From an uncultured Gammaproteobacteria bacterium (GTDB taxonomy: Bacteria > Pseudomonadota > Gammaproteobacteria > UBA9214): DNA of 64,000 nt. The notes under the pieces were generated by a model, which was given only the letters and a program-made list of their open reading frames with translations, did not search any database and was not told the DNA's origin. Location: the NCBI GenBank assembly GCA_963748215.1, contig CAVVHS010000009.1:352001-416000 (forward strand), in the 5' to 3' direction. Below, in pieces: positions 8,515 through 56,795 of the stretch. Within the stretch, counting starts at the first letter, position 1. Each line of letters begins with the position of its first letter. The translations under genes were made by a program, and so were the position numbers.

Positions 8515-8825
8515 GGGTGTTTATGGCGTATTCATAAGTATGCCGCCGATTGGAAAGGCAGAAATCCCTGCGGGGATTTTGCGGGACTCGGTTGTGCATT
8601 GTTATGCATCGTGGTGCACAGTGTGCAACGGGCGCCACGGTAAGTTATTGAAGTGAAAGGCTGAAAAATCGCCTTTCTGTCCATTTAATCCGATGGTCGT
8701 TGGTTCGAGCCGAGGACGACGCAGTCGGCCGAAACAACTGCGTCGCATCAGCGACGCTGACCCCGAAGGGGCGAGAGCGCAGCCCGAGTAATCCTTCACG
8801 ACCCACCCTTTAATCAAGTTAGTAA
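8515..8825 (+). repeat. att-like repeat copy 1: GCGGGA direct repeats + IHF-like site + tRNA-Lys 3' half with 82-nt T-loop insert
   Basis: TTTAATCCGATGGTCGTTGGTTCG[8708-8789]AATCCTTCACGACCCACC; homologous to the copies at 10.2, 23.4, 48.5 and 56.5 kb. Confidence 0.9.
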
Positions 8826-9021
8826 CAGCTAGATTTCAGCGCTCTTTTCATGTAGACGTTATATAGCCGAGTTACCCACCGACAGGCGTGACTGGCGGAA
8901 CAGAACCAGAACTCGAACATCGAGATACCACTCCATGCGAATGATTCACAGACAGGGAGTCATATAACCCGAAACGTTCATGAGGTAGTGTAACGTGGAG
9001 CAAAATGTTGGAGGTACTGGA

Positions 9022-10137
9022 ATGACCAGGTGCTGGATAACAGTAGTCGGATTGGCGCTGCTCACCTGCGGTGTCGCCGCCGCGCAGGATGCTGCAGTGC
9101 TTGAGAGTGACAAGGCACGGCTAAGTTACACCCTCGGCATGAATTTCGGGAACCGGCTCCAGGACCAGTCGATGGCGGTGGACTCAGAATTCAGCATTCA
9201 GGAATTCAGGGATGCCCCGACCGGCGGCAAGACGCTGCTGACCGAAGCGGATGTACAAAGCATCCACGCCGGACAGCCAGCCAAGCTGAAGCAGCAGCAG
9301 AATGCCTTGCAGGACGACAAACGGTTACTGAATAAACAGACAGGGGAAGCGTTTCTTGTCGCAAACAAGGACACGGAGGGCGTCATAACCCTCAAGAGCG
9401 GTCTGCAATACAAGATCCTCGAGGCTGGTCATGGCGACAAGCCCACCCGCGATGACACGGTCGTAGTCCACTACCGTGGGGCCCTGGTCGACGGGTCCGA
9501 GTTCGATAGTAGCTACCAGCGTGGCCAGCCGGCGACCTTCGCCGTCAATCAGGTCATCCGGGGCTGGGGTGAAGCCCTGCAACTGATGCCGGTAGGATCG
9601 AAGTGGCAGCTCTTCATTCCTCCGCACCTTGCCTACGGCACGCGCGGCACGGGCCACCAGATCGGTCCCAACGCGACACTGATTTTCGAGGTGGAACTGC
9701 TTGCCATTAAAGGTCCGCCTGGCGGAGCTGCCCGGGTCCCTGCAAGCATCGATACGGCTGCCGTGACCGATAATCTCACGGATATCCAGGCATCGTTCAA
9801 GCTGGACCCGCGACTCACCCGGAGTTTGTACATGGGCGAGCGCTGGGTTACGCCGCCCACCTTTGCCAGTACTCACCATGCGGGGGATGAGTACACGCTG
9901 GAGTTGCGGGTACATGGTATCGATGACCGGGGTCGGCGCATTCCAGTCGATCCCGAGTGGATACCCTCCGACCCTGATATGGTGGTCTTGTCCTCCGTAC
10001 GGGGTGATAAGATCAAAATAACCGTGAAGCATGCCGGGGTGAGCACGCTGAACGTGTCGGCGCTCGGATTTACCAAGAAATTGCTCATCAAGGCGACAAA
10101 TGTTGGTAATGCCATTCAGGTAGAAATATCCCAGTAA
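9022..10137 (+). CDS. FKBP-type peptidyl-prolyl isomerase (FkpA/Mip-like) with an extra C-terminal domain
   Basis: Signal peptide, SGLQYKIL, VHYRGALVDGSEFDSSY, IGPNATLIFEVELL; GGAGG RBS at 9010. Confidence 0.9.
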   Translation: MTRCWITVVGLALLTCGVAAAQDAAVLESDKARLSYTLGMNFGNRLQDQSMAVDSEFSIQEFRDAPTGGKTLLTEADVQSIHAGQPAKLKQQQNALQDDKRLLNKQTGEAFLVANKDTEGVITLKSGLQYKILEAGHGDKPTRDDTVVVHYRGALVDGSEFDSSYQRGQPATFAVNQVIRGWGEALQLMPVGSKWQLFIPPHLAYGTRGTGHQIGPNATLIFEVELLAIKGPPGGAARVPASIDTAAVTDNLTDIQASFKLDPRLTRSLYMGERWVTPPTFASTHHAGDEYTLELRVHGIDDRGRRIPVDPEWIPSDPDMVVLSSVRGDKIKITVKHAGVSTLNVSALGFTKKLLIKATNVGNAIQVEISQ

Positions 10138-10166
10138 CAGGATTGGTCAGCAGTGCAGGTTGCACC

Positions 10167-10238
10167 GTGTGTATTGCGAATTGCTGTTCAGGCGGCTTCG
10201 GCAGCTGGTAAAGACAGTGGCCATGAGATTTCCGACTG
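10167..10238 (-). mobile_element. Right-end fragment of an rve-type IS
   Basis: Similar to the IS ends at 18639 and 36760 (tgtgt..gcgaattg...caggc...atgagatttcc). Confidence 0.6.
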
Positions 10239-10239
10239 G

Positions 10240-10597
10240 TGGAAGCCGGAAATCCTTGCGGGACTTTTTGCGGGACTCGGTTATGCATCGTCCTGTCTCG
10301 TGGTGCAGAGTGTGCAACGGGCGCCACGGTAAGTTATTGAAGTGAAAGGCTGAAAAATCACCTTTCTGTCCTTTTAATCCGATAGTCGTTGGTTCGAGCC
10401 GAGGACGACGCAGTCGGCCGAGACAACAGCGTCGTATAGGCGACGCTGACCCCGAAGGGGCGAGGGCGTAGCCCGAGTAATCCAACACGACCCACCATTA
10501 AAGGGGATTCTGCGGGGATTAACCGCAAATTTTCCTCGTTGGTTAAATTCTGCCTGTAGAGAATTCTTGGTTGCGCACCAGTAACAGACTCGAATCA
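10240..10597 (+). repeat. att-like repeat copy 2 (tRNA-Lys 3' half with T-loop insert)
   Basis: CTTTTAATCCGATAGTCGTTGGTTCG[10397-10478]AATCCAACACGACCCACCA; right arm interrupted by the IS at 10598. Confidence 0.92.
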
Positions 10598-11751
10598 TGT
10601 CCTTCCCGAAAATACGTACTGCCTGATATTCTTGACCTTTTTCAGAGACGCTATCAATCTGGTGTCCGCTGTCATTGTTAGTATCCAGAATCATGAAGCC
10701 CATTGTCTGCGCGCTGTTACTGCTGGTGTCTACTGTGGTCCGTTCGCGGGTTTCCCTGCAGCTCGAGATTGTGGCACTGCGACATCAACTTGCCGTGTAT
10801 CAGAGATCAACCAAACACCTGCAGATTAGCTCCGAAGACCGTATTCTCTGGTCGTGGTTCGCGCGCCGCTGGTCGGGGTGGTGTGATGCGCTGGTTTTTG
10901 TCCAGACAGGGACTGTGATTGCCTGGCAGCGTAAACGTTATCGCGATCGTTGGGCCAAATTGAGCAAGCATGGCAGGCCCGTTAGACCGCCGGTATCAGA
11001 ACAAATCAAGGCGTTGATCCGCAAGATGTCGGCAGCCAATATCAGCCGGGGTTCACCACGGATTGTCGGGGAGCTACACAAGCTCGGCATCGATGTTGCT
11101 AAATCAAGCGTGGAGAAGTACCGGGTGCGGCCCAGTAAGCCATCCTCTCCGACGTGGAAGGCTTTTCTGAATATTCATCTCAGGGACCTGGTGTCCATTG
11201 ATTTCTTCGTGGTGCCAACCGTGAGAAACATCGCGCTGTTAGTTTTGGTGGTACTCGCACATCATCGTCGCAGGGTTGTGCACCTCAATGTCACGGAGCA
11301 TCCGACCGCCCTGTGGACAGGTCAGCAGATCATTGAAGCATCCCCTGGGATACGGCACCGAAATATCTACTGCGGGACCGAGATGCTGTCTATGGAAGCC
11401 AATTCCAGAAACGCGTCCAAAGCATGGGTATCGAAGAGGTGCTCTCGGCGCCGCGAAGCCCCTGGCAGTATGCATTTGTGGAACGCGTCATTGGCAGCAT
11501 CCGGCGAGGTCGTCTGGATCATGTCGTTGTGTTGAACGATTGTCATTTGAAACGAATGCTGACGTGTTATTTCAACTATTACCATCACTGGCGCACGCAT
11601 CTTTCGCTGGGAATGGACAGTCGCGGGTCGCGATCTGTGCAGTCACCAGACCTTGGAAAGGTAGTACAATTTCCAGAAGTCGGTGGTCTACATCACCATT
11701 ATGAACGGTTGGCGGCATGATAGGGTGTGATACGAGTTTTCAGGAAGGACA
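10598..11751 (+). mobile_element. IS481-like insertion sequence with frameshifted rve (DDE) transposase (about 10693-11720)
   Basis: 21-bp imperfect terminal inverted repeats tgtccttcccgaaaatacgta / tacgagttttcaggaaggaca; SIDFFVVPT, SPWQYAFVERVIGSIRR, GGLHHHYERLAA. Confidence 0.85.
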
Positions 11752-12248
11752 TCTTTCCTGACCTGGGGCGGGGGCAAAGCGGACCGCGAAAAAGAAGCCG
11801 GCCCCGAAAACCCTCATATCCGTGCGACGGACAGGCCGAAAAAGCACAAAAATGGGGGGTTCCCACCGGTAACGGCGAAATCCGGGCCAATTTTGTGGCG
11901 GCCCTGGGGCTGGGTTGGCCTTCAACTGCATCCAGGGAAGGGTTAGGCGTGACTGGGCCTGATATGCGCTGCGTGTTTATGAGGACATTAAAAGATTTTG
12001 CTGTGAGAATTCACACTTTTCCGGAAGCTCGGCTACCATAGGGTAGCAGCGCAATGGGGTATTCGAAACACACGATTGCACGTAGGCTTTAACCCTGTGG
12101 CATGGTTGCTGTCATACACCTGAGTAGAACTTTTTGTCCGTTGATCGATCTACTTAATTCGAACGTCCGGGTCAGTGGCTGATGCTTGAGGCGGGCACTC
12201 CGTCTCGGTGTGGTTCGTATAAACAGCTAACACAATGAGGATAATTTA

Positions 12249-13101
12249 ATGTTCACCAGCAATCCCTTTTCCGAGCTTTCGGCATCTATATCACCCATAG
12301 TCATGCAGGGGTACGTCATCTTGATGGTCCTGCTGGTCATAGGCGGAACTGTACTTGATATGATTCACAAGAAAAGTGCGCAGTACTTTTTCGAGAATGC
12401 GAAAAAAGCGAAAAAGAGCGCGAAACGGTCTGTGGGCACTGGTGAAAAGGCATCAATTGCCGTTCAAGGTGCTGGCTAATGAAGTGTTAACTTCCGGTGA
12501 ATTCTGCAACATAAAACGCAGGCTTTCCCATCTTTTGACCATGTATGGCTTCATTATTTTCGTCGCAACGACCGCCATTATGATTTTTGCCTATCCGACG
12601 CCGGCGACGCCTACGCCAGCCATCCTGCCGCAACTGTGGCATATCGGCGCACTGATGCTGGCTATTGGTGGATACTGGTTCTGGTTCTTTATCCGCGTTG
12701 ATGTGTCTGCGGAAGGCCTTTCGTGGTATCGCTTCGAACGTACGGATTTGTTTATTGTCTCGCTGCTCACTACTGCGACATTCGGATTAATCTGGTCCTA
12801 TACGCAGTCGCAGGGCATTGCCGGATGGTCAACCCTGGTCTTCGTTTTGTTCATCGTCTCAAGCACGATGCTTTTTGGCAGCGTATTCTGGTCCAAGTTC
12901 GCACATATGTTCTTCAAGCCTGCCGCTGCTTTTCAGAAACGTGTTACCCGTGCCGATGGTTCAAGAGAGAATTTACCTGCTGATTACGATCTGACGGATC
13001 CTGCAGTACAGGCAAAATTTCCGGATATCCCGGAATATATGGGCAAGAACCCAGCTTACATGGGGCATGGTATCAAGCGTGAGTCAGCAAACCACTACTA
13101 A
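12249..13101 (+). CDS. aprM: Adenylylsulfate reductase membrane anchor AprM (+1 frameshift near 12467)
   Basis: Multi-TM protein with RRLSHLLTMYGF and WSKFAHMFFKP directly upstream of aprBA. Confidence 0.85.
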
Positions 13102-13142
13102 CATTCATTCAATTACCGTTACAGGAATAGAGAGAATATATT

Positions 13143-13625
13143 ATGCCAACTTTCGTATATATGACTCGTTGTGATGGTTGTGGCCAGTGCGTTGATATCT
13201 GTCCATCTGACATCATGCACATCGATAAAACACTTCGTCGTGCTTACAACATTGAACCTAACATGTGCTGGGAATGTTATTCCTGCGTAAAAGCCTGCCC
13301 TCACCACGCGATTGATGTGCGTGGTTATGCAGATTTCGCTCCACTGGGTCACTCGGTACGCGTGCTCCGTGATGAGGAAAAAGGCACGATTGCGTGGCGC
13401 ATCAAGTTCCGCAACGGCAAAAAAGACATGGATCTTCTGGCGCCTATCACAACCAAACCCTGGGGCACCGCAATTCCCCAGCTGTCCGAAGAAGCAGCAC
13501 CAAGTAACGAAATGCGTGACAGTGAGCTGTTGTTTAACGAGCCCAAGTATATCCGCCTGGATGAAGGTGGCTTGCACACACTTGAGTCAAATGGCCTGAA
13601 ACTGAAAGAAGGGGTGTACTACTAA
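13143..13625 (+). CDS. aprB: Adenylylsulfate reductase beta subunit
   Basis: MPTFVYMTRCDGCGQCVDICPSD...CWECYSCVKACP; two 4Fe-4S motifs. Confidence 0.97.
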   Translation: MPTFVYMTRCDGCGQCVDICPSDIMHIDKTLRRAYNIEPNMCWECYSCVKACPHHAIDVRGYADFAPLGHSVRVLRDEEKGTIAWRIKFRNGKKDMDLLAPITTKPWGTAIPQLSEEAAPSNEMRDSELLFNEPKYIRLDEGGLHTLESNGLKLKEGVYY

Positions 13626-15491
13626 TGGGCTACAAAACTATTATTGAAGACGATATCGACATCCTGGTAGCAGGTGCCGGCCTCGGTGGTACCGGTGCTG
13701 CATTTGAAGCAAGATATTGGGGCAAGGACAAAAAAATTGTCATTGCAGAAAAAGCAAACATCGATCGTTCTGGTGCAGTAGCCCAGGGTCTTTATGCGAT
13801 CAACTGCTACATGGGTACACGCTTCGGCGAAAACAATCCAGAAGATCACGTCCGTTATGCGCGTATGGATCTGATGGGTATGGTTCGTGAGGATCTGGCC
13901 TTTGATATGGCGCGTCACGTTGACTCCACTGTTCACCAGTTTGAAGAGTGGGGCCTGCCGTTGATGAAAGACCCCAAGACGGGTCACTATATGCGTGAAG
14001 GGCGTTGGCAGATCATGATTCACGGTGAATCATACAAGCCGATCGTTGCAGAAGCCGCGAAAAAATCAGCAGACAAGGTATTCAACCGTATCTGCGTAAC
14101 CCATCTGCTGATGGATGATGCCAAAGAGAACCGCGTCGCGGGTGCTGTTGGATTCAATGTGCGTACGGGTAACTACCACGTATTCAAGTCCAAGACCGTT
14201 ATCTGTGGTGCCGGTGGTGCTTCTAACATCTTCAAGCCACGTTCAGTCGGTGAAGGTGCGGGTCGTGTCTGGTATGCCCCATGGTCATCCGGTTCTGCAT
14301 ATGGTCTGATGATCGAAGCAGGCGCGAAAATGACACAGATGGAAAACCGTATCGTACTGGCTCGATTCAAGGATGGTTACGGCCCGGTGGGCGCCTACTT
14401 CCTGCACCTCAAGACTTATACACAGAATGGTCTGGGTGAAGAGTATGAATCCAAGTGGTTCCCGGCGCTGACCGAAATGGTCGGTAAGGAATATCTGGAT
14501 ACGGAAGGCCAGCATTTGTCCCACAAGCCAATACCGACCTGTTTGCGTAACCATGCATTTATCTCTGAGGTGAATGCCGGTCGTGGTCCTATCCACATGG
14601 TGACCATGGAAGCCTTCCAGGATCCTCATCTTGAAGAGATCGGCTGGCACAACTTCCTGGGCATGACCGTTGGTCAGGCGGTACTTTGGGCGGCAACAGA
14701 CGTTGATCCTAAATACGAAAACCCTGAACTAACCACTTCTGAGCCATATGTTATGGGTTCACATGCAACGGGTTGTGGTGCATGGTGCTCAGGTCCGGAA
14801 GATGTTTCTCCACCGGAGTACTACTGGGGCTATAACCGTATGACCACAGTTGAAGGTCTGTTTGGCGCGGGTGATGCGGTCGGTGGTACACCGCACGCAT
14901 TCTCATCGGGTTCTTTCACTGAAGGTCGTCTGGCTGCTAAAGCTGCCTGTAAGTACATTGATGATGGCAAGGCCGAAGGCATTCGAGTTTCTGAGAAGCA
15001 GATTTCTGATCTTAAAGAGAAGATTTACAAGCCATTGGAAACCTATCAAAGTTTATAGCAATGAAATCGTTGGCGGTTCAGTTAATCCAAACTTCATCAA
15101 CCCAAGACAGGGTCTGGATCGTTTGCAGAAACTGATGGATGAGTATTGTGGTGGTTTTGGTGTCAACTACATGACCAACGAAAAACTGCTCCAAATCGGT
15201 CTCAAGAAGCTTAAAACGCTTGAGGAAGACATGGAGAAGATTGCGGCGGAAGATATCCACGAGCTGTTGCGTGCATGGGAATTAAATCACCGTGTTCGCA
15301 CTTCTGAAAGCGTGTTCCAGCATACCTTGTTCCGTAAGGAAACGCGTTGGCCTGGTTACTACTACCGTGGTGATGCGATGAAACTGGATGATAAAAACTG
15401 GCACGTGCTGACAGTTTCTCATCGTGATCGTAAGACGGGTGAGTACACTATGGAGAAAGCACCCCTTTACCACCTGGTGGGTGATGAATAG
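13625..15491 (+). CDS. aprA: Adenylylsulfate reductase alpha subunit (+1 frameshift near 15047)
   Basis: RSGAVAQGLYAINCY, WQIMIHGESYKP, C-terminal ETRWPGYYYRGD in the second frame. Confidence 0.96.
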
Positions 15492-15540
15492 GGTAATAGC
15501 CGAGTAAATATCAAGATTAATTTCTACTTGTCTTTGAAAT

Positions 15541-15574
15541 AAAGACCAGCATATTGTTTGTTGGTCTTTTTTTT
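15541..15574 (+). terminator. Probable intrinsic terminator after aprA
   Basis: aaagaccagc...gttggtcttt hairpin followed by a T-run. Confidence 0.65.
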
Positions 15575-15637
15575 CCATAGTTTAGTAGTATGCGGCCTTT
15601 GTTCGATCGATAGTCCTGCGAAACTTATATGTTTTAA

Positions 15638-16003
15638 GTGAACAATAGAATGATGAATATTATTGAAAAAACAGATGAAGAGATATTGGCGCTCGCTAAC
15701 CCAATGTGGGCTGATCTTGTTAAATACTCGAATGAACAAAACTACGGTGCTTTCACCCGACATTTCGCAGCAGCTATGCTGATGGGTGCAAATGAAATCG
15801 AGATGGGCAAACAGTTTGCAAGAAGTGAATTGACAAAGAACCTGTCTGAAAATTACGAATATCTTGGCATAATACGCCGTGGTGAACATGTAACGGTTTT
15901 ATATAAACAAAGACATACCAAGAAAGAGGGCGAGTGGCTGGGCAGGCTGGTGCTGGGTTATGAAAAGGACAAGGTAAAAATATTTGGTGCTACGCTGTTC
16001 TAG
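15638..16003 (+). CDS. Hypothetical protein (apr-associated)
   Basis: 121-aa ORF, co-oriented within the apr cluster. Confidence 0.7.
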   Translation: MNNRMMNIIEKTDEEILALANPMWADLVKYSNEQNYGAFTRHFAAAMLMGANEIEMGKQFARSELTKNLSENYEYLGIIRRGEHVTVLYKQRHTKKEGEWLGRLVLGYEKDKVKIFGATLF

Positions 16004-16035
16004 GGCAGCTTTATCGATAACAGGTTTTTCTGGTT

Positions 16036-16545
16036 ATGTCAGATACAATACAAAACGAAAAATTCGTTGAACTAAGTTATAAAATCATCGATGAAAAAAC
16101 CGGTGACATACTTGTTACTGTTGATTATCCTCTGGGGTATGTTCATGGTGTGAATGATGTTTTGTCTGATCAGGTGACAAAGCAACTGGATGGCAAAAAA
16201 GTCGGTGATATCATCGAAGTGCCTGTTGACACTAAACTGCTATATGGTGAGAGAGACGAATCACTTGTGTTTACTGACCACATCGAAAATGTTCCTGAAG
16301 AGTATCGAGAGATCGGTATGACCATTACCATGGAAAATGAAAAGGGTGAGCCCAGAAATTTTATCGTCACCCGTTTCGATGACAAAACATTAACCGTCGA
16401 TGGAAATAATCCACTGTGTGGTAGAGACGTTGTTTTCAGGTTGGAAGTGTTGAACATACGTGAAGCGACCGATGAAGAAATCGATCTTGGCGGAGCTGTT
16501 GACGCCGACCCAGACTTAAATGATATTTTCAGCCGGGCAAAATGA
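16036..16545 (+). CDS. SlyD-like FKBP-type peptidyl-prolyl isomerase
   Basis: PLGYVHG, LTVDGNNPLCGRDVVFRLEVLNIREATDEEI. Confidence 0.88.
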   Translation: MSDTIQNEKFVELSYKIIDEKTGDILVTVDYPLGYVHGVNDVLSDQVTKQLDGKKVGDIIEVPVDTKLLYGERDESLVFTDHIENVPEEYREIGMTITMENEKGEPRNFIVTRFDDKTLTVDGNNPLCGRDVVFRLEVLNIREATDEEIDLGGAVDADPDLNDIFSRAK

Positions 16546-25520: not shown

Positions 25521-25521
25521 C

Positions 25522-47518: not shown

Positions 47519-47528
47519 GGAGTTCGTC

Positions 47529-48319: not shown

Positions 48320-48480
48320 ATTGGTTTGCCCGGCATGTTCCAGCGCATTCGCAGAGCGGTTTGCGCGCTCCATAAAGTACGAATGCCAGGATTGCATGAT
48401 TTTGTTCAGGAAAGCAGCGTTTCGCCGGGCACCCTGAGAATATCTTGCGCATCACCATGCCGAATGCAATCGTCAGGGTG
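48320..48480 (+). mobile_element. rve transposase fragment
   Basis: Translates to SAFAERFARSIKYEC..CMILF...EYLAHHHAECNRQG. Confidence 0.6.
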
Positions 48481-49063: not shown

Positions 49064-49116
49064 GTCCTTGGCGAATTCCTATTCATGCAACAATTGGCCT
49101 CTGGGGGGTGTTTGTG

Positions 49117-51587
49117 ATGAACAAGACAAAACAAGACAAGGCCGATTCGGTGTCGATAGATCCTGTCTGTGGCATGCAGGTTGGTGCTGACAGCAAACAC
49201 CGGCATATACATAAGGGTACGGAATACCTGTTCTGCAGTGAGTCATGCCACGATAAATTTATTACCACACCTGAAATCTATCTGCGTCCGGAGGCACAGG
49301 GATCGATGGCGGAGGCCGATGTGGCCGGTTCCTGCCCGGATCATACCTGTGAGATCGACGCGTCGCTTTACACCTGCCCGATGCACCCGGAGATACAACA
49401 GACAGGACCGGGTGCCTGTCCCAAGTGCGGGATGGCGCTGGAGCCAATGACGGTACCACTGGCGGCTACGCGGACTGAGTTTACCTGTCCGATGCACCCG
49501 GAAATTGTTCAGGATCATCCTGGCAGTTGCCCGAAGTGCGGCATGGCGCTGGAGCCACGCACCGTACAGGTGGAAGAGGATACCAGTGAACTCGATGACA
49601 TGACGCGGCGCTTTCGGGTGAGCAGCCTGCTCGCCATCCCCGTGTTTCTGCTGGCGATGATTGCAGACCTGGCGCCGTCACTCCTGCCGGACGGCCTGAG
49701 CATGCAGGCCGTGCAATGGACTCAATTTGTGCTAGCCACTCCGGTCGTGATCTGGGGCGGCTGGCCGTTTTTTGTGCGTGGTGTTAAATCTGTTATCACC
49801 TGGAATCTGAATATGTTCACGCTGATTGGCCTGGGCGTCTCCGTCGCCTGGACCTACAGCACGGTTGCATTGCTGTTTCCGAGGATCTTTCCGGCGCTTA
49901 TGCAAATGGAAGGCGGGCGCGTGGATGTCTACTTCGAGGCGGCAGCCGTCATCACCGCACTGGTGCTGCTGGGACAGGTCCTGGAATTACGGGCCCGCAG
50001 TCAGACCAACGCTGCCATCAAGATGTTGCTTGGCCTGGTGCCCAACAGTGCACGCATCGTGCGTGACAACGGTTCCGTGGAAGACATCCCGCTGGAACAG
50101 GTACAACCCGGTAACATACTGCGCGTACGTCCCGGTGAAAAGATACCGGTGGACGGCGTGGCCACTGAAGGTCACACCTCGGTGGATGAGTCGATGGTGA
50201 CCGGTGAATCGATTCCGGTGGAAAAGAGTGCCGGTGACAAGCTGATTGGCGCGACCGTAAACGGCACCGGCAGCCTGCTGATGCGTGCCGAGAAGGTCGG
50301 CGCCGATACCCTTCTGGCGCAGATCGTACGCATGGTCAGCGAGGCACAAAGATCGCGCGCACCGATTCAGAAACTGGTGGATATTGTGGCCGGTTATTTC
50401 GTGCCTGCGGTAGTCATGATCGCCCTCATAACACTGGTGGTGTGGGGCCTCTGGGGCCCGGAGCCGCGTCTGGCACATGCCATCGTGAATGCCGTTGCCG
50501 TGCTGATCATTGCCTGTCCCTGCGCACTCGGACTGGCAACACCCATGTCGATCATGGTCGGCACCGGCAAGGGCGCGACGCTGGGGGTGCTGATTAAGAA
50601 TGCCGAGGCACTGGAGATCATGGAGAAGGTCGACACCGATTGTGATTGACAAGACCGGCACCCTGACAGAGGGGAAACCAACACTGGTCGCGGTACAGCC
50701 AGCCACCGGGTTTACCGAGGATGACGTGCTGCAGCTTGGCGGCCAGCCTGGAACGCGCCAGTGAACATCCGCTCGCCGAGGCCATTGTGCGAGGTGCGGA
50801 AGACCGGAACATGACCCTGAGTCAGACAGATGACTTTGAATCTGTAACCGGCAAGGGTGTGACAGGGAAAGTCAGCGGGCGAATGGTGGCGCTGGGCAAT
50901 ATCAGGCTGCTGGAAAGCCTGTCCATCGACCCGGGTGAACTGCCACGCCTGGCGGAGGCCGGGCGTGCGGAGGGTCAGACCGTTATGTTTGTGGCCATCG
51001 ACGGTCGTGCTGCCGGGCTGATCGGCGTGGCGGACCCCATCAAGGACTCCACGGCCGAGGCCATCCGCGATTTGCACGCAGAAGGTGTCAAGGTAGTCAT
51101 GCTGACCGGCGACAGCCGCACCACGGCCGAGGCGGTTGCACGCAAGCTCAATATCGACCGGGTCGAAGCAGAAGTCCTGCCGGATCAGAAGGCGGAGATC
51201 GTCAGGCAACTGCAGGCCGAGGGACGCATTGTTGCCATGGCCGGCGACGGAATCAACGACGCGCCGGCGCTGGCCCAGGCACACGTCGGCATCGCCATGG
51301 GAACCGGTACCGATGTCGCCATGGAAAGCGCGGGCGTCACCCTGGTCAAGGGCGACCTGCGCGGCATCGTACGGGCGCGGCGCTTGAGTCGCATGGTGAT
51401 GCGCAATATCCGCCAGAACCTGTTCTTCGCCTTTATCTATAACTCACTGGGCGTACCGGTTGCCGCCGGTGTGCTTTACCCGGTGTTCGGCCTGCTGTTG
51501 TCGCCCATCATTGCCGCAGCCGCGATGAGTTTCAGTTCGGTATCCGTGATCGCCAATTCATTGCGCCTGCGCAGGGCACGTATCTGA
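49117..51587 (+). CDS. copA: Copper-translocating P1B-type ATPase with YHS and heavy-metal-binding domains (frameshifts near 50638 and 50738)
   Basis: [14 protein letters not shown]-type motif x2, [25 protein letters not shown]...MSFSS. Confidence 0.9.
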
Positions 51588-51607
51588 CGACGTCCGGGAG
51601 GTGAATC

Positions 51608-51733
51608 ATGCCTGGGACAGACGTCGGATGGGGGTTTGACATGGGGTTAGGCATGTGGGTGTTCTGGATACTGCTGATCGTGATCATCGTGGTCCTGGTC
51701 AAGGTGATCAGCCCTGGTTCCGTATCACGGTAA
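51608..51733 (+). CDS. Small membrane peptide (possibly the N-terminus of a truncated SHOCT-type protein)
   Basis: GGAGG RBS; MPGTDVGWGFDMGLGMWVFWILLIVIIVVLVKVISPGSVSR. Confidence 0.5.
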   Translation: MPGTDVGWGFDMGLGMWVFWILLIVIIVVLVKVISPGSVSR

Positions 51734-51827
51734 TCATCCTCAAAAAACAGCTGATCCCGAAGGTAGGGATTAAGCCACGATGAGCCAGCTTCTGTGTCGG
51801 GGGGTGATTGCCGTGGCAGCACCTGGC

Positions 51828-54800
51828 TCATCGCGGCTCCACCGGGTGATGACTGGGTGTGTGCGGCGACGTGTGCGGCGGCCGGTGCGGCATCTGCTCG
51901 AAATCGTCCGGGTCGGTCCCCAGGCGACGGTCGGTCACCAGCCGGTAGAACAGCGGGATGAAGAAGATCGCCAGGAAGGTTGCCGCCAGCATGCCGCCCG
52001 GCGACACCGGTACCGACAGCGTGGCGCGCCCCGGCGCCGGCACCGGTCGAAATCGCCAGCGGCATGACGCCGAGGATGAACGCCAGCGAGGTCATCAGGA
52101 TCGGTCTGAAGCGCAGCCGCGCCGCCTCCATGGCCGCGGCGCTGGCGGAATAGCCTTCACTCTTTTTGAGCACGGCGTATTCGACAATCAGGATGGCGTT
52201 TTTCGCCGCCAGTCCGAGCAATGTCACCAGACCGATCTGGAAATAGACGTCGTTGTTGAGACCGCGCAGCCAGACGGCGGCCAGCGCACCGAAGGTGCCG
52301 AACGGCAGGGCCAGCTGCACGGCGATCGGCAGCGACCACTTTTCGTACTGCGCGGCAAGGATCAGGAACACCATCAGCACCGCCAGACCCAGGGCGAGGC
52401 CGGAGGTGCCGCTGGAACGTTTTTCCTGGAACGAGGCGGAGCTCCAGTCGTAGCTGAAGTCTTCGGACAGGGTGCGATCGGCGATCGCTCGACGATTGCC
52501 AGTGCCTGGCCGGAACTGATGCCGGGCGCCGAATTGCCAAAGATCTTCACCGCCGGCAGGTTGTTGAAGCGATCCAGCGTTTCCGGACCCGAGGTGTACT
52601 CGACATTGGCGAGTGCCGCGAGCGGTACCATGGGTACCGTCCTGTGCCGGCACGTACAGCGCGCCGATATCCTCCGGCCTGACGCGATAGGCCGGGTCGG
52701 CCGACATCAGCACCTGCCAGGTGCGGCCGAACTTGTTGAAGTCGTTGACATAGAAAGTGCCCAGCGTGGCCGCGACCGTGTTGAACAGCGCGTCGATGTC
52801 GACGCCGAGCAGCTTCGCCCTGTCGCGGTCGACGTCGACATACAGCTGCGGCACCCGCGAGCGCCACAGCGTTAGCGGCTGGACAATGCGCGGGTCCTTG
52901 CGCAGTTCGGCAAGCAGTTGTTCACTGGCGGCGGCGAGGCCTTTGGCCCGCCTTCGCCGCGGTTCTGCACGTACAGCTCGAAGCCGCCGGCGTTGCCGAG
53001 GCCGAAGATCGGCGGCGGACCGAAGGCCAGCACCAGGGCTTCCTGATGCCGGCGGTCTGGCCATGAACAACTCGCCGACCAGTCGCTTGACTGGAGCGCT
53101 GGCGCTCGTCCCAGTGCCGGTGCGGCGACGAAGATGGTCGCCGCGCTGTTGCGGAAGCCGCCGCCGAGAAAATCGAGACCGGTGAACGCCACCACGTGCT
53201 CGGCATCGGGATCGGAACGCATGACAGCGATCACCTCTTGCGTGACCGCCTCGGTGCGGGCGAGGCTGGAACCGTCCGGCAGGAAGACCGCGCCGATGTA
53301 GTAGCCCTGGTCTTCGTCCGGCACCAGCGAGCCCGGTGTGATGTTCCACAGGAACGACCGCCGCGGCGACCATCAACAGGTAGAGTCCGATGGCAAGTAC
53401 TGTCCGCCGCAGCAGGAAATTGACCCCGGCCAGGTAGCCGCCGGTCACATGCGCAAATCCGCGGTTGAAGGCGGCGAAGAAGCGTCCCGGCTGCCGTCCC
53501 TGGTTCCTGAGGATGATCACGGACAGCGCCGGCGTCAGGGTCAGCGCGACGATACCGGAGATCACCACCGCGATCGAGATGGTCACCGCGAATTGCCGGT
53601 ACAGTTCGCCGGTCAGGCCGCCGAGGAAGGCGATCGGCACGAACACCGCGCACAGCACCAGCACGATGGCGATCACCGGCCCGGTGACCTCGTGCATCGC
53701 CTTGATCGCCGCTTCGCGCGCGGCAGCGCTTTTCCTCGTGCATGATGCGCTCGATGTTCTCCAGCACCACGATGGCGTCGTCGACGACGATGCCGATCGA
53801 CAGCACCATGCCGAACAGGGTGAGGGTGTTGATCGAGTAGCCGAGCAGCTGCAGGCCGGCGAAGGTGCCGATCAGCGATACCGGCACGGCGATCACCGGA
53901 ATCAGCGTTGCCCGCCAGTTCTGCAGGAACATGTAACACCACCAGCAACACCAGCAGCATCGCTTCGCCCAGCGTCTTGAGCACTTCGCGGATCGATACC
54001 TCGACAAAGCGGGTGGTGTCGTAGGGAACGCTGTAGGTCAGGCCATCGGGAAAATCGCTCTGCCAGTCCGGCGACCGTCGCCTTGACTTCGTCGCCCACC
54101 GCCAGCGCATTGGCACCCGGCTGCAGGAAGATGCCGACCAGGGTCGCCGGCTTGCCGTTGATAGCGGCCGATGAAGTCGTAGTCCTTCGAGCCGAGCTCG
54201 ACGCGCGCGACATCCTTCAGGCGCAGCAGCGAGTGCCGTCCGGCTCGGCGCGCACGATGATGTCGCTCGAATTCTTCCGGGGTCGGACAGGCGGCCCTGG
54301 CGTGTGATGGTGTAGACCAGCTCCTGTCCCTCGCCGATCGGCGGCTGGCCGATCTTGCCGGCGGCGAACTGCGCGTTCTGCTCGTTGATGGCGCTCGCTG
54401 ACTTCGGTGGCAGTGACGCCGAGTTGCGCCATGCGGTCCGGCTTCAGCCAGATGCGCATGGCGTAGTCCTTGGCGCCGAAGATCTGCACGTTGGTGGTGC
54501 CGGGGATGCGCTTCAGGCGATCCAGCACGTTCAGGGTGACGTAGTTGCTGGTGTAGATGTCGTCGAAGCGGCCGTCCGGCGAGAGGAAGGCGAGCACCTG
54601 CAGGAAGGCCGACGAACCCTTCTCGACGGTCACGCCCTGGCGGCGCACTTCTTCCGGCAGGCGTGGCTCGGCCTGCTTGACGCGGTTGTTGACGTTGAGC
54701 GCGGCCTGGTCGACGTCGGCGCCGATTTCGAAGGTGACCTGAATCTCCAGCACGCCGTTGGACGCCGAGGTCGAGCTCATGTACATGCAGGTCCTCGACG

Positions 54801-55019
54801 CCGTTGATCGGCATTTTCCAGCGGTGCGGCGACCGTTTGCTCGAGGATCTGCGCCGAAGCGCCGGGGTAGATCGCCCGCACCGTGACCACCGGCGGTGCG
54901 ATTTCCGGGTACTGCGCGATCGGCAGGATGCGCATCGACAGCACGCCGGCCAGTACGAGGAAGATCGACATCACCGCCGCGAAGATCGGACGGTCGATAA
55001 AGAAGCGCGACAGCACCAT
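51828..55019 (-). CDS. HAE1 RND efflux permease (AcrB/MexB-like), many frameshifts
   Basis: [50 protein letters not shown] in successive frames. Confidence 0.88.
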
Positions 55020-56263
55020 CAGGGCGCCTCGTTGTCGATGGTCTGCGTCGTGGCGTCCTGTGCGGGGGGGGTGGTCCCGGCCGGTTGCGGCATGATCGGC
55101 ATCCCGGGGAAGAATATGCGCGCCGTGCCGTCAGTTACCACCTGGTCGCCCCGGGTGAGACCCGAGCGGATCACCCAGAGTCGTTCGACGCCTTTGGTGC
55201 CGGATTTTTCCACCCACTGGCCGACCTCGACCGGCTTTGGCTGCGCGACTGTCATGCCATTCTCACCCTGGCCGGCGACGTAAACGAACTTGCCGCTGGC
55301 GTCCTCCTGTACTGCCCGCTGCGGTACCGCCAGGGCGCCGGGAAGGATTGCGCCTTCGATCCGGACCCGCACGAACTGGCCGGGACTGAGCTTCGCGTCA
55401 GGGTTTGGCAGTGTTGCCCGAACCGAGAAGGCGCCGGTTTGCGGATCGGTGCGGTAATCATTGAAATCGACCTGTCCGGCCAACGGGTAGGGCGTGCCGT
55501 CGGCGAGCCGCACCTCGACCCGGGTCTGATCGGGCGGGGACATGACCAGGCTGCCATCGGCCAGTTGTCGGTCGATGGTCAATCGATCGTTTTCGGCGAT
55601 GGAGAAATTGACATACAACGGATCGATCTGCGCGAGCCGGGCCAGCGCCCCGGATGTCGGTGACACCAGCGCACCCTCGACCTGCAAGGCGCGTCCGATG
55701 TGGCCGGAGATCGGCGCAGTGACGTTGGTGTAGCCGAGTTCGAGCGTTGCCTGTGTCAGTTCCGCATCGGCGACGGCGACGGCGGCGCGGTTGAGATCGC
55801 GGTTCGATACGGCATCATCCAGTTCGCGCTGGCTGACGGTCTGTTTGTTGGCGAGTGGTGCGAGACGTTTTACATCGCGTTCGGCCTGAACCAGGCGTGT
55901 CCGGGCCTCCGCCAGCGCCGCTTCCGCCGCCTGCTTGCGCGCGGCGAACGGCGCGGCGTCGATGCGGAACAGGGACTGGCCGGCATCGACGCGGCCGCCT
56001 TCCTCGAACAGCCGTTGCTCGATCAGTCCGGTGATCTGCGGTCGGATCTCGATTTCGCGCGAAGCTTCCAGTCGGCCGACATACTCGAATTGTACAGGCA
56101 GGTCCTGTGGTTGCAGTTCGAGCACGGTGACCTGTTGCGGGGGTGACGCACCGCCGCCTTCCGAGGGTTGTGATTCACTCTTGCCGCAACCGGCCAGTTG
56201 CAGTGCGAGAAGGGCGCTCGCCAGGGTTGCCATAACGGCGAAGCTGCGCAGAACTGTCATCAT
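55019..56263 (-). CDS. RND efflux periplasmic adaptor (lipoprotein)
   Basis: LAGC lipobox, [23 protein letters not shown]. Confidence 0.92.
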
Positions 56264-56466
56264 GCCGGAGTCTCCTCGACGGGATTCATCCGGCTCAGTT
56301 CCCGGATGCGGTCGTTGCGGTCCACTTGTGTCGCCGCAGGGACGCTGTGAGTTCTGCGCTGCCAAAAACATGGATATCCATCCCGGGTAACCGCTTGAGC
56401 CTGTTGGCCTCTTCAGGAAGATTGTACTGTACCATCCGGAAATTCTTCCATGGCACGAAGTGCAGG

Positions 56467-56795
56467 GCGAATTTCAGCCCAGGCGGAAGGGTGGCAGCGT
56501 CTAGACCGTGGCATTGTGTGTTCCATCTGGCGGAAGCTGATGAATCCATGCAGGTATTTTTCGGGACCCGGTTATGCACCGTCCTGCATCGTGGAGCCTT
56601 GGTCGAAACAGTAAATTATTGAATAAAAAGGCTTATAAATTGCCTTTCTGTCCTGTTGATCCGATGGTCGCTGGCTCGAGCCGCGGCCGACGCCGTCGGT
56701 CGGGACATCGGCATCGCACAAGCGATGCTGACCCCGAAGGAGCTAAGGTGCGGCCCGGGTAATCCAGCACGACCCACCATTTAATCAATATGTTT
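56467..56795 (+). repeat. att-like repeat copy 5 (diverged)
   Basis: TCCGATGGTCGCTGGCTCG[insert]AATCCAGCACGACCCACCA ending at 56779; left flank like copy 2. Confidence 0.85.

What the first reader, a model, noticed from the sequence alone, without database searches (positions are those of the whole stretch)
8515..56795. Possible integrase-less cassette array punctuated by co-oriented att-like sites
Seen: all five copies have the same orientation and similar layout. Left: GCGGGA-type direct-repeat pair (e.g. tgcgggactttttgcgggac, 10257), then TAAGTTATTGAA-like sequence (copies 1, 2, 4, 5), then the tRNA core. Right: an AWCAAnnnnTTA-like site (e.g. 23598, 48762) and, in copies 2-4, a second GCGGG(G)A pair. 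Established: arm repeats + IHF sites + tRNA-3' core is the architecture of tyrosine-integrase att sites, and tandem islands leave such junctions. The segments between copies carry FKBP (1.4 kb), aprMBA plus flavoproteins (13 kb), adhesin/c-di-GMP/ABC genes (25 kb) and CopA plus RND (7.5 kb). No tyrosine integrase or intact tRNA was seen. Inference: an integron-like, tRNA-anchored cassette system mobilised in trans, or a dispersed att-derived repeat that shuffles the genome.
Basis: partly seen in the sequence, partly recalled or inferred. Interest (0 to 1): 0.82.

Follow-up and report, generated by a model that had tools for sequence, protein, structure and literature searches.

The report
tRNA-Lys island array with att scars
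The five repeats are leftover attachment-site junctions from gene islands that inserted one after another behind a lysine tRNA gene; each scar also carries an 82-base insert of a repeat family whose function is unknown.

Summary
The window holds five co-oriented copies. The genome holds eight, all on one strand and all within 98 kb downstream of an intact tRNA-Lys(UUU) that lies 41 kb before the window.

Each copy has these parts:
- a left arm with a GCGGGA-type direct pair and phased TGCA repeats;
- a tRNA part running from the anticodon loop to the T loop;
- a 71-83-nt insert of RtT / tRNA-linked-repeat type, placed in the T loop;
- the tRNA-Lys 3' end;
- in 6 of 8 copies, a right arm identical in kind to the sequence just after the real tRNA-Lys.

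Homologous arms flank tRNA-Arg, tRNA-Pro and tRNA-Met fragments elsewhere in the genome. In relatives the GCGGGA pair lies inside the 3' end of intact tyrosine-integrase genes next to tRNA-Arg or tRNA-Met.

Homology with relatives starts or stops at the element edges. The cargo is mosaic.

No integrase lies on this contig, and none was found beside tRNA-Lys arms in relatives.

Best reading: a tandem array of integrase-less islets, like cis-mobilizable elements, bounded by composite att junctions. It is not an integron. Present-day mobility is untested. The T-loop insert is secondary and polymorphic, and it remains unexplained.

The parts
8510..8683 (+). Copy 1, left (P-type) arm: GCGGGG-N5-GCGGGA pair at 8570-8586, phased TGCA repeats, GCAACGGGCGCC, TAAGTTATTGAA, small hairpin
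   Evidence: Sequence and alignments. The left edge at 8509/8510 is set by the end of 93% homology with G018:C1 and by the start of the G050 copy.
8684..8708 (+). Copy 1, tRNA-Lys-derived part (anticodon loop to T-loop GGTTCGA)
   Evidence: 25 nt 100% identical to tRNA-Lys C9:310604-310628.
8709..8790 (+). Copy 1, 82-nt RtT/TLR-type insert in the T loop
   Evidence: Rfam RF00391 full-length match at 31.3 bits, against a cut-off of 45. The insert limits come from the alignment with the tRNA and with insert-less orthologues.
8791..8822 (+). Copy 1, tRNA-Lys 3' end (15 of 18 nt match) plus an IHF-consensus-like site; no right arm follows
8995..10137 (+). Cassette between copies 1 and 2: a single FKBP-type isomerase gene
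   Evidence: Pfam FKBP_C and FKBP_N. In 36 relatives only ~70% DNA matches were found, no better than to the genome's own paralogue at C6:793708.
10168..10502 (+). Copy 2: left arm (pair at 10258-10275), tRNA-Lys part 10373-10397, insert 10398-10479, 3' end 10480-10497
   Evidence: (28.7 bits).
10503..10597 (+). Copy 2, right (P'-type) arm with a GGGGATTCTGCGGGG pair
   Evidence: 82% identical to the sequence 3' of the true tRNA-Lys. Homology of G047:C83 to the cargo starts at 10598.
10598..23329 (+). Cassette between copies 2 and 3: APS reductase (AprB/A), flavoproteins, TPR protein, IS3-type remnant, MITE-like element; GC 50.3%
   Evidence: Pfam and GC content. Matches at 90-93% in G051, G047 and G019. 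In G051 the cargo lies 3 kb 3' of tRNA-Arg(acg) plus its arm.
23330..23603 (+). Copy 3 (chimera): Met-type left arm (pair at 23353-23370), tRNA-Met-like part up to 23493, insert 23494-23576, Lys-type 3' end 23577-23594
   Evidence: The Met-type site at C8:211949 is shown. RF00391 scores 21.4 bits. Logan contigs of two runs bridge this copy.
23640..23915 (+). Copy 3, right arm
   Evidence: Repeat families D13-D16 and the alignment.
23916..48475 (+). Cassette between copies 3 and 4: HlyD/GAF protein, Ig-repeat adhesin, GGDEF-EAL, PilZ, OEP, ABC/FtsX, DUF3683 oxidoreductase, SDR
   Evidence: Pfam. In G008:C10 a copy sits directly upstream of the DUF3683 gene, at the equivalent of window ~43314, where this genome has none.
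48476..48766 (+). Copy 4: left arm, tRNA-Lys part 48644-48669, shortened insert 48670-48740 (one hairpin deleted), 3' end 48741-48758
   Evidence: (30.4 bits).
48805..49070 (+). Copy 4, right arm
   Evidence: Repeat families D13-D16 and the alignment.
49071..56459 (+). Cassette between copies 4 and 5: P-type heavy-metal ATPase (read as two ORFs) and RND/HlyD efflux genes
   Evidence: Pfam.
56460..56788 (+). Copy 5: degenerate left arm, tRNA-Lys-like part ending at 56679, insert 56680-56761, 3' end 56762-56779; no right arm. The T stem is GCTGG/CCAGC, a covarying allele.
   Evidence: Not listed by the RF00391 search at E up to 10.

Best explanation
The five repeats are composite attachment-site junctions of attR/attL-hybrid type. 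They are five of eight such copies behind a single tRNA-Lys(UUU).

Proposed history. Related integrative elements of a tyrosine-integrase family that targets tRNA genes inserted one after another at the tRNA. Each new insertion pushed the earlier island, and the displaced tRNA 3' part, further downstream.

Each junction reads, in order:
1. the left arm of one islet, with a GCGGGA direct pair, phased TGCA repeats and an IHF-like site;
2. a displaced tRNA 3' part that starts in the anticodon loop;
3. the right arm of the next islet, with an IHF-like site and a GCGGGG pair.

The integrase genes are gone, so the array is now a chain of integrase-less islets of 1.4 to 25 kb, comparable to cis-mobilizable elements.

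After displacement, the T loop of every copy in this genome acquired a 71-83-nt insert of RtT / tRNA-linked-repeat type. It probably spread by gene conversion between copies.

Shown: the anatomy; the link of the arm family to integrases and to four tRNA species; the homology breaks at element edges; the secondary nature of the insert.

Inferred: that the repeated motifs bind integrase, excisionase and IHF; the order of insertions; any present mobility.
For: 1. Position and orientation. Eight of 8 copies lie on the strand of tRNA-Lys(UUU), 7 to 98 kb downstream of it.

2. tRNA content of the copies.
- They carry 25-31 nt identical to tRNA-Lys positions ~28-58.
- They also carry its last 18 nt: identical in 4 of 8 copies, with 1-3 mismatches in the other 4.

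3. Right arm.
- The 180-300 nt after the true tRNA-Lys recur after 6 of 8 copies.
- This stretch is 96.9% identical over 320 nt to the one after copy c1, and 70-83% identical to the others.

4. The same arm family at other tRNAs.
- Homologous left arms precede 3' parts of tRNA-Arg(acg), tRNA-Pro(ggg) and tRNA-Met(cat) elsewhere in the genome.
- The GCGGGA pair lies just 3' of tRNA-Arg(acg), where it overlaps the end of a frameshifted integrase gene.
- It also lies just 3' of tRNA-Pro(ggg), next to a 30-residue integrase remnant.

5. Intact integrases in relatives.
- Integrases of this family, in open frames of 381-389 aa, sit next to tRNA-Arg(acg) in G017 and G049 and next to tRNA-Met in G024.
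- In G017 and G024 the pair lies between the tRNA end and the integrase stop codon.
- In G017 the ORF from its first start codon is 367 aa. It matches PF00589 at E 2.1e-16 and phrog_1 'integrase' at 5.3e-42.

6. Homology with relatives breaks at element edges.
- G018:C1 follows window 3000-8509 at 93% identity and stops at the left edge of copy 1.
- G047:C83 starts at 10598, the right edge of copy 2's arm.
- G008:C10 and G044:C83 carry copies with other cargo on one side.
- In G044 the copy abuts the secretin-like gene that lies 5.7 kb past copy 5 here.
- In G018 tRNA-Lys lies 2.6 kb from a homologue of that gene.
- In G002, G008 and G018, homology ends 3-10 nt after tRNA-Lys, with no arm.

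7. Cargo is mosaic.
- The Mrp-type segment is 93% identical only in G018.
- The apr segment is 90-93% identical in G051, G047 and G019. In G051 it lies behind tRNA-Arg(acg) and its arm.
- The apr segment has 50.3% GC against 60.5% for the genome.
- Islets carry toxin-antitoxin and defence genes: PIN, AbiEii plus Wadjet, and ParE here; Fic and HD plus AbiE in relatives.

8. The insert is secondary.
- c1 equals the copies in G015:C60, G023:C10 and G012:C301 plus exactly 82 nt between GGTTCGA and ATCC.
- c1 and c2 share a 101-nt core at 100% identity while their left arms are only 64% identical.

9. Copy 5 keeps a covarying foreign T-stem allele (GCTGG/CCAGC), as expected of a 3' half that once completed a working tRNA.
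Against: - No integrase or recognisable integrase remnant adjoins any tRNA-Lys arm. There is no PF00589 match on contig C9. tblastn with the family integrase found nothing beside the Lys right arms in the genome at E below 5, nor within 6 kb of 13 true right-arm loci from genomes of the same genus at E up to 1e-3.
- Copies 1 and 5 lack a right arm, so the chain is not a simple uninterrupted accretion series.
- In G002, genes 65-76% identical to part of the segment before copy 1 lie 8-18 kb from a tRNA-Lys with no arm. Some cargo may therefore be old neighbourhood rather than imported.
- The RtT-type insert is not a known feature of att sites. If it lay in an active attP and crossover were in the anticodon loop, integration would destroy the tRNA.
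- Binding of integrase, excisionase or IHF to the motifs is not shown.
- The 96.9% identity over 320 nt between the tRNA flank and the c1 flank would equally fit Campbell-type integration by homologous recombination.
Confidence: 0.78

Rival explanations
1. Stand-alone small-RNA genes. Each copy would be an RtT-like RNA gene with its own promoter. The GCGGGA direct pairs would be binding sites for a response-regulator-type transcription factor that also controls the adjacent genes.
For: - The core matches Rfam RtT over the full model in 7 of 8 copies, at 21-36 bits.
- It is 73-74% identical to above-threshold RtT copies of this genome.
- RNAalifold gives a multi-hairpin fold with 3 of 34 pairs showing compensatory changes.
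- Four of 5 window copies precede a + strand gene.
- Direct pairs with an 11-12 nt period resemble OmpR/PhoB-type sites (recalled).
Against: - No sigma-70-like promoter was found in the arms of copies 1 and 2.
- The same pair lies inside integrase 3' ends next to tRNAs.
- The left arms are joined to tRNA 3' parts of four different tRNAs, beginning at the anticodon loop.
- The insert is absent from orthologous junctions in relatives.
- Rfam's cut-off is not reached, and the covariation term of the alignment is unfavourable at +1.12.
Confidence: 0.07
2. Homologous recombination only. The repeats would be copies of the tRNA-Lys flank spread by segmental duplication, or by Campbell-type insertion of circles through homologous recombination. 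No site-specific integrase would ever have acted at tRNA-Lys.
For: - A long, near-identical repeat (320 nt at 96.9%) links the tRNA-Lys flank and the flank of c1.
- The c1 and c2 cores are 100% identical.
- No integrase trace was found at any Lys arm.
Against: - The duplicated tRNA part begins sharply at the anticodon stem-loop in Lys, Arg, Met and Pro sites, which is the signature of attP-borne tRNA halves.
- The left arm is unrelated to the tRNA's own upstream sequence.
- The arm family is physically tied to integrase genes at sister tRNAs.
Confidence: 0.08
3. A dispersed MITE- or REP-like repeat that transposes into intergenic DNA and only secondarily causes rearrangements.
For: The element is multi-copy, intergenic, about 300 nt long and rich in hairpins.
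Against: - It has no terminal inverted repeats and no target duplications.
- All 8 copies are confined to 98 kb behind one tRNA and share its orientation.
- The content is tRNA-derived.
- The true MITE-like element of this genome looks quite different and gives 44 BLAST matches across the genome's contigs.
Confidence: 0.04

Closest known systems
Tandem genomic islands and cis-mobilizable elements formed by accretion at a tRNA or tmRNA gene, for example the Dehalococcoides ssrA islands (PMC3146451; passages read)
   Same: - Many direct repeats of the RNA gene's 3' part lie within ~100 kb downstream of a single-copy gene.
- Each repeat bounds an island with strain-specific cargo and disrupted synteny.
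- Many islands lack an integration module, and those authors propose them as cis-mobilizable or fixed.
   Different: - Here the associated recombinase family is a tyrosine integrase, not a serine recombinase.
- The repeats are 300-500-nt composite junctions with conserved arms on both sides, not 20-bp cores.
- No islet of the Lys array keeps an integrase.
- The cores carry a T-loop insert.
tRNA-linked repeats (TLRs) / RtT RNA, Rfam RF00391 (PMC8144298; passages read)
   Same: - The element ends in the 18-19 nt of a tRNA 3' end.
- Its structured middle part is homologous to the RtT copies of this genome that sit directly behind tRNA-Glu, Gln, Ser and Arg.
- TLRs have no known function according to that paper.
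   Different: - These copies are not adjacent to their tRNA; they lie 7-98 kb away.
- They score below Rfam's cut-off.
- They are embedded between integrase-type arms.
- They keep a genuine tRNA segment from the anticodon loop on.
- Insert-less orthologues exist.
Chromosomal integron cassette arrays (recalled, not tested against a paper)
   Same: Both are a one-directional chain of small, promoter-poor cassettes separated by recombination sites, rich in toxin-antitoxin genes, with the recombinase not inside the cassettes.
   Different: - There is no IntI, attI or attC.
- The sites are tRNA-derived with arm repeats.
- The cassettes are up to 25 kb.
- The anchor is a tRNA gene.
Tyrosine integrases that cross over in the anticodon-loop or T-loop 'sublocations' of tRNA genes (Williams 2002; recalled, and cited as ref. 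24 in PMC3146451)
   Same: The duplicated tRNA part starts at the anticodon loop, and the integrase gene converges on the tRNA 3' end at sister sites.
   Different: The crossover point is not determined here. Chimeric cores (the Met/Lys copy 3 and the hybrid T stem of copy 1) suggest exchanges between the T-stem halves.

Membership tests
att junction of a tRNA-targeting tyrosine-integrase element | Partial direct repeat of the tRNA 3' part, co-oriented with and downstream of the intact tRNA | tested here: met
   Eight of 8 copies lie on the + strand, 7-98 kb 3' of tRNA-Lys(UUU). They carry 25-31 nt plus 18 nt of tRNA identity.
att junction of a tRNA-targeting tyrosine-integrase element | Integrase gene next to the tRNA-proximal junction | tested here: not met
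   No PF00589 match on contig C9. tblastn found nothing beside the Lys arms. The feature is met only at sister sites: tRNA-Arg (frameshifted here, intact in G017 and G049) and tRNA-Met (G024).
att junction of a tRNA-targeting tyrosine-integrase element | Arm-type repeated motifs on both sides of the core | tested here: met
   GCGGGA-type pairs occur on the left arm in 8 of 8 copies (degenerate in 2) and on the right arm in 6 of 8 copies and after the tRNA itself. Protein binding is not testable with these tools.
att junction of a tRNA-targeting tyrosine-integrase element | Cargo differs between strains, with breakpoints at the repeat edges | tested here: met
   Breaks fall at window 8509/8510 (G018), at 10598 (G047) and at the tRNA-Lys end (G002, G008, G018). 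Copies with other cargo occur in G008 and G044.
att junction of a tRNA-targeting tyrosine-integrase element | Excision products (circle or empty site) detectable | tested here: inconclusive
   Only assembled contigs of 4 runs could be laid. The joints seen are explained by other copies or by the true tRNA.
RtT / tRNA-linked repeat (Rfam RF00391) | Score at or above Rfam's gathering cut-off (45 bits) | tested here: not met
   Seven of 8 copies are listed, at 21.4-35.8 bits. Copy 5 is not listed. Seven other loci in the genome score 45.9-61.2 bits.
RtT / tRNA-linked repeat (Rfam RF00391) | Last 18-19 nt identical to the 3' end of a tRNA | tested here: met
   18 of 18 nt match in c1, c2, c3 and c5; the other four copies have 1-3 mismatches.
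RtT / tRNA-linked repeat (Rfam RF00391) | Lies immediately downstream of that tRNA in the same operon | tested here: not met
   The nearest copy is 7.1 kb from tRNA-Lys, with genes on both strands in between.
Integron | IntI-type integrase with attI at the head of the array, and attC sites between cassettes | tested here: not met
   No tyrosine recombinase on contig C9. The sites are tRNA-derived with arms, not attC-like.
Cis-mobilizable element (CIME) | Flanked by att sites of an integrative element but without recombination or transfer genes | tested here: met
   Pfam scans of the picked ORFs (36 in the window and 35 upstream of it, not every ORF) give no integrase, relaxase or conjugation gene. 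Both arms are present for the islets between c1-c2, c2-c3, c5-c6 and c6-c7.
Cis-mobilizable element (CIME) | Excised or transferred when an integrase is supplied by a neighbouring or incoming element | not testable with these tools
   This needs an experiment or raw reads.

The most novel reading that the evidence does not exclude
The array would be a working, tRNA-anchored cassette platform. Small islets bounded by full P-core-P' sites would be captured, excised and reshuffled by a family integrase supplied in trans, much as an integron handles cassettes.

The 82-nt RtT/TLR module would be an active T-loop-specific insert that spreads among displaced tRNA halves by conversion or insertion. 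It might lock or tune these sites.

If so, tRNA-linked repeats, unexplained since 1978, would be by-products or regulators of integrase traffic at tRNA genes.
Probability: 0.15. Interest if true: 0.8.

Novelty: new variant of a known kind. Interest (0 to 1): 0.5.

Why it matters
Tandem islands behind tRNA genes are known, so the main finding is a clear example rather than a new principle.

Three points go beyond the textbook picture:
- An eight-junction, 98-kb chain has not one integrase left, and the tRNA-Lys islets examined in relatives were also integrase-less.
- One arm family serves four tRNA species and produces chimeric cores.
- An RtT / tRNA-linked-repeat module sits as an exact insert in the T loop of displaced tRNA halves, while insert-less orthologues exist in relatives.

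The third point gives a concrete, testable handle on how tRNA-linked repeats arise and spread. A paper I consulted states that they have no known function (PMC8144298, passages read).

Tried and rejected
- Rfam at gathering thresholds on the window: no match. Only the E-value mode revealed RtT.
- ARAGORN on the window: no tRNA.
- Sigma-54 or sigma-70 promoter reading of the left arm. I considered it from the sequence; the simple scan found no sigma-70-like site in copies 1-2. The association with integrase ends made a promoter reading unnecessary.
- Reading the Lys right arm as the remnant of an integrase 3' end, as at tRNA-Arg and tRNA-Pro: tblastn gave no hit.
- Excision or circle joints. 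Only Logan contigs of 4 runs (2 studies) could be laid.
  - The 'skips 82' joints have 21-24-nt sides and fit the true tRNA-Lys mapping across the insert.
  - The 10534-to-23696 joint carries 21 letters that match the arm of another copy.
  - This is no evidence either way.
- Pattern scan of genome contigs with an 18-nt right-arm motif: 36 stretches. Only 13 loci had real arm homology, all in records titled Gammaproteobacteria, Pseudomonadota or Ectothiorhodospiraceae MAGs. The rest fit my estimate of about 35 chance matches for a pattern this short in a collection this size.
- ABC1-kinase gene as a conserved right-flank marker: found in only 1 of 5 good assemblies at high identity, so it was dropped.
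- Literature.
  - 'tRNA-linked repeat' found 2 papers and 'RF00391' found 2 papers. Neither set links TLRs to att sites in the passages I read.
  - 'RtT RNA / tyrT' returned mostly unrelated papers.
  - I did not see Rudd 1999 or Egan and Landy 1978.

Full report
**What is there**

The window is G000:C9:352001-416000. The repeat finder gives five co-oriented copies of a unit of roughly 250-300 nt. I read all five.

BLAST of copy 1 against the whole genome finds eight full or near-full copies:
- all lie on contig C9, + strand;
- they start at C9:317774, 328149, 334974, 360560, 362249, 375480, 400521 and 408543;
- E values run from 1e-36 to 1e-133;
- weak partial matches occur elsewhere.

I call the eight copies c1 to c8. 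The window copies 1-5 are c4-c8. ARAGORN finds no tRNA in the window. On the whole genome it finds tRNA-Lys(UUU) at C9:310571-310646 (+). That is 7.1 kb before c1 and 41.4 kb before the window. All eight copies therefore lie within 98 kb downstream of this tRNA, in its orientation.

**Anatomy**

Alignments show the following order of parts:
1. A left arm of about 170 nt. It holds a GCGGGA-N5/6-GCGGGA direct pair, three or four TGCA(T/C) motifs spaced 10-11 nt apart, a conserved GCAACGGGCGCC, an A/T-rich TAAGTTATTGAA-like stretch, and a small hairpin whose stem varies with compensating changes.
2. A stretch of 25-31 nt identical to tRNA-Lys, from the anticodon stem-loop to GGTTCGA of the T loop.
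3. An insert of 82 nt. It is 83 nt in c6 and 71 nt in c7, where one hairpin is missing.
4. ATCC plus the rest of the tRNA-Lys 3' end. This is 18 of 18 nt in c1, c2, c3 and c5, with 1-3 mismatches in the others.
5. An AATCAAnnnnTTA-like site.
6. In c1, c2, c3, c5, c6 and c7, a right arm of 95-300 nt that starts with a GYGGGGATTTTGCGGGG pair.

The same right arm follows the true tRNA-Lys. The stretch C9:310628-310947 is 96.9% identical to the stretch that begins inside c1's 3' end, and 70-83% identical to the others.

Copy 3 of the window (c6) is a chimera. Its left arm and its anticodon loop (CTCATAA) match a tRNA-Met-type site at C8:211949. Its insert and 3' end are of the Lys type.

**The insert is of RtT / tRNA-linked-repeat type**

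Rfam at gathering cut-offs finds nothing in the window. In E-value mode the copies align over the whole RtT model (RF00391) at 21-36 bits, against a cut-off of 45.

A genome-wide search with that model gives the following:
- 7 of the 8 copies are listed; c8 is missed;
- seven other loci score above the cut-off, at 45.9-61.2 bits.

Six of those seven lie directly 3' of tRNA genes: Glu, Gln(ctg), Ser(tga), Ser(gct) and Ser(gga). The seventh lies directly 5' of tRNA-Gln(ttg). Further sub-threshold units follow tRNA-Arg(ccg) and tRNA-Ser(cga).

These are classic tandem tRNA-linked repeats, each ending in the 3' end of its own tRNA. The insert in the C9 copies is 73-74% identical over ~93 nt to two of them.

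According to PMC8144298 (passages read):
- E. coli has 22 such TLRs;
- their hallmark is an 18-19-bp identity with the upstream tRNA or rRNA 3' end;
- apart from three rRNA-linked ones, they have no known function.

**The arms belong to a tyrosine-integrase family**

A loose regular expression for the direct pair finds 32 places in the genome.
- Thirteen lie in the C9 array.
- The others include a pair just 3' of tRNA-Arg(acg) (C5:2582), one just 3' of tRNA-Pro(ggg) (C6:890473), and left-arm pairs in front of 3' parts of tRNA-Arg(acg) (C6:884502), tRNA-Pro(ggg) (C6:16945) and tRNA-Met (C8:211949). The second tRNA-Arg(acg) site, near C6:836850, has a variant pair (GCCGGA, GCCGGG) that the expression missed; I read it in the sequence.
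- The remaining dozen are degenerate and look like chance matches.

At C5 the pair overlaps the last codons of an integrase gene that converges on the tRNA and is split over two frames. At tRNA-Pro a 30-residue remnant of the same C-terminus is left.

Searching the genus with the integrase finds intact genes, in open frames of 381-389 aa, next to tRNA-Arg(acg) in G017 and G049 and next to tRNA-Met(cat) in G024. In G017 and G024 my pair pattern found the pair between the tRNA and the integrase stop codon; it found none in the G049 locus.

In G017 the ORF from its first start codon is 367 aa. It matches PF00589 at E 2.1e-16 and PHROG 1 'integrase' at 5.3e-42.

The left arms in front of Lys, Met, Arg and Pro fragments align with one another. 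In each case the tRNA identity begins at the anticodon loop.

There is no PF00589 match on contig C9.

**Comparison with relatives**

The genus sample consists mostly of fragmented assemblies. Sixteen of 24 sampled congeners match some module of the element. None of 16 genomes from other families does.

*tRNA-Lys without an arm.* In G002, G008 and G018, homology to G000 ends 3-10 nt after tRNA-Lys, with no right arm.

*The conserved right flank.*
- In G018 a homologue of the secretin-like gene (67.7% amino-acid identity) lies 2.6 kb after the tRNA. In G000 this gene sits 5.7 kb beyond c8.
- In G044 a copy abuts that same gene (89.5% DNA identity). The other side of that copy matches G000 contig C8 at 90%.

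*Breaks at element edges.*
- G018:C1 matches window 3000-8509 at 93% and then diverges, exactly at the left edge of copy 1.
- G047:C83 matches from window 10598, the right edge of copy 2's arm. It continues on the other side into unrelated DNA, without a copy.

*Cargo found in other contexts.*
- G051 has the apr segment at 91%. It lies 3 kb behind tRNA-Arg(acg) and its arm, with IS fragments in between.
- G008:C10 has a copy directly upstream of the DUF3683 gene (91.4%), at a place where G000 has no copy.
- The FKBP gene between copies 1 and 2 has no close counterpart in 36 congeners. The best matches are ~70%, the same as to the genome's own paralogue on C6.

*Composition.* GC of the segments is 50.3% for the apr segment, 57-59% for most others and 63% for the copper/RND segment. 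The genome is at 60.5%, with an SD of 3.9% for 5-kb windows.

*Gene content.*
- Upstream of the window the islets hold a MacB-type ABC system, two identical IS200-type ORFs, a PIN toxin, AbiEii plus a Wadjet system, MscK, ParE, ion transporters and an Mrp-type operon.
- In relatives, the first islet behind tRNA-Lys is 2-3 kb. It carries a Fic protein (G015, G023), an AAA/DUF4143 protein (G012) or HD plus AbiE (G015:C242). None carries an integrase.
- tblastn with the family integrase finds nothing within 6 kb of 13 loci with true right-arm homology.
- None of the PF00589 matches listed for the genus lies near the tRNA-Lys arms I had located, but 57 matches were not listed.

**The insert is secondary and polymorphic**

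c1 has the same left arm as junction copies in G015:C60, G023:C10 and G012:C301. Those carry an uninterrupted tRNA-Lys 3' half. c1 differs by exactly 82 nt inserted between GGTTCGA and ATCC.

Left arms of the commoner type also occur in front of uninterrupted halves (loci L096 and L088). They occur with the insert in G015:C242, G008:C10, G044:C83 and L113.

Within G000, the 101-nt core of c1 and c2 is 100% identical although their left arms are only 64% identical. This points to conversion or exchange between copies.

T-stem halves tell the same story:
- c8 has GCTGG/CCAGC, a covarying allele, as expected of a half that once completed a working tRNA in another lineage.
- c4 has GTTGG/CCTTC, a hybrid of the G000 and G015 alleles.

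Among 11 Lys-type cores, RNAalifold predicts 34 pairs. Only 3 show compensatory changes and the covariation term is unfavourable. I therefore make no claim that the insert functions as RNA.

**Interpretation**

The simplest account is serial site-specific insertion at tRNA-Lys. Each incoming element brings a left arm, a tRNA 3' part and a right arm. Integration leaves the right arm behind the restored tRNA and moves the old 3' part, now headed by the new element's left arm, to the far end.

Repetition gives junctions of the form left arm - displaced half - right arm, which is what c1, c2, c3, c5, c6 and c7 are. c4 and c8 lack a right arm, so deletions or other rearrangements have intervened.

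Several findings speak for this account and against a promoter or sRNA reading:
- integrase-adjacent sister sites at tRNA-Arg and tRNA-Met;
- the shared arm family across four tRNA species;
- homology breaks at element edges;
- the mosaic distribution of cargo.

The closest described case I read is the chain of ssrA islands in Dehalococcoides. There, 15 islands without integration modules are discussed as possible cis-mobilizable elements or as fixed (PMC3146451, passages).

**What remains open**
- No integrase trace adjoins any Lys arm, here or in the relatives examined. The islets may have lost their integrases long ago, or they may always have depended on an integrase acting in trans. Each islet with both arms would, on excision, form a complete left arm - core - right arm site.
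- The only family integrase in this genome is frameshifted.
- The attempt to see excision could use only assembled contigs, and it gave joints that other copies or the true tRNA explain.
- The crossover point is not known.
- Why all eight displaced halves in this genome carry the RtT-type insert is unexplained. So is whether the insert disables, tunes or merely marks the sites.
- Part of the segment before copy 1 has 65-76% counterparts 8-18 kb from an arm-less tRNA-Lys in G002, so not all cargo need be imported.

**Verdict**

The att-site reading is largely right, and the integron analogy is loose. The case is a new variant of a known kind. The TLR insert in the T loop is the one feature that could open a new question.

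Noticed in passing
window 18030-18160: A MITE-like element of about 130 nt with terminal inverted repeats. It gives 44 BLAST matches across the genome's contigs. In the contigs of four metagenome runs its summed depth is 430-505 in three runs and 50 in the fourth, far above neighbouring bins in all four, with many loose ends at 18030-18032 and 18160.
   Followed up: partly
G000 contig C6:836600-890640 (- strand), outside the window: A second co-oriented chain. tRNA-Pro(ggg) with a right arm and a 30-residue integrase remnant lies at 890.5 kb. Downstream, left-arm copies joined to tRNA-Arg(acg) halves lie at 884.5 kb (followed by two tandem TLRs) and at 836.8 kb (with a T-loop insert). A lone Arg-type TLR lies at 879.5 kb. 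The cores do not match the anchoring tRNA.
   Followed up: partly
G000 contig C8:211450-211960 and tRNA-Met at C8:221035-221111 (- strand): A left arm plus an intact tRNA-Met 3' half plus an integrase C-terminal remnant, 9 kb downstream of tRNA-Met(cat) and co-oriented with it. The left arm is the type seen in window copy 3.
   Followed up: partly
G000 contig C8:225176-225300 (- strand): A nearly full-length pseudo-tRNA-Gln with an RtT-type insert in its T loop lies directly upstream of the real tRNA-Gln(ttg). Another TLR follows that tRNA.
   Followed up: no
G000 contig C9:319655-328078 (upstream of the window): The islet between c1 and c2 carries an AbiEii toxin gene and a Wadjet-type set (DUF3375, MksE-like, SbcC-like ATPase, JetD).
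   Followed up: no
G000 contig C9:315993-316730 and 333326-334063 (- strand): Two IS200-type (Y1_Tnp) ORFs of 245 aa with identical Pfam scores. Each lies 1-1.7 kb before a junction copy, next to a toxin gene (PIN or ParE).
   Followed up: no
window 18555-19289 and 36760-37426: Two related IS3-type remnants (rve_3 domain), 75-81% identical to each other. Related pieces occur next to tRNA-Lys in G024 and G050 and next to tRNA-Arg in G051.
   Followed up: partly
window 48991-51587 and 51532-53697: The heavy-metal P-type ATPase reads as two ORFs (552 and 288 aa). The RND pump ORF has 721 aa, and its best Pfam stretch covers only the last third of the ACR_tran profile. Both may be broken genes.
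   Followed up: no
window 32128-32412 and 33808-34092: A 285-nt direct repeat at 93% identity, spaced 1680 nt apart, at the end of and just after the PAS-GGDEF-EAL gene.
   Followed up: no
window 26181-30902: A 1573-aa Ig-repeat protein built of 279-282-nt tandem units (9-13 units by family).
   Followed up: no
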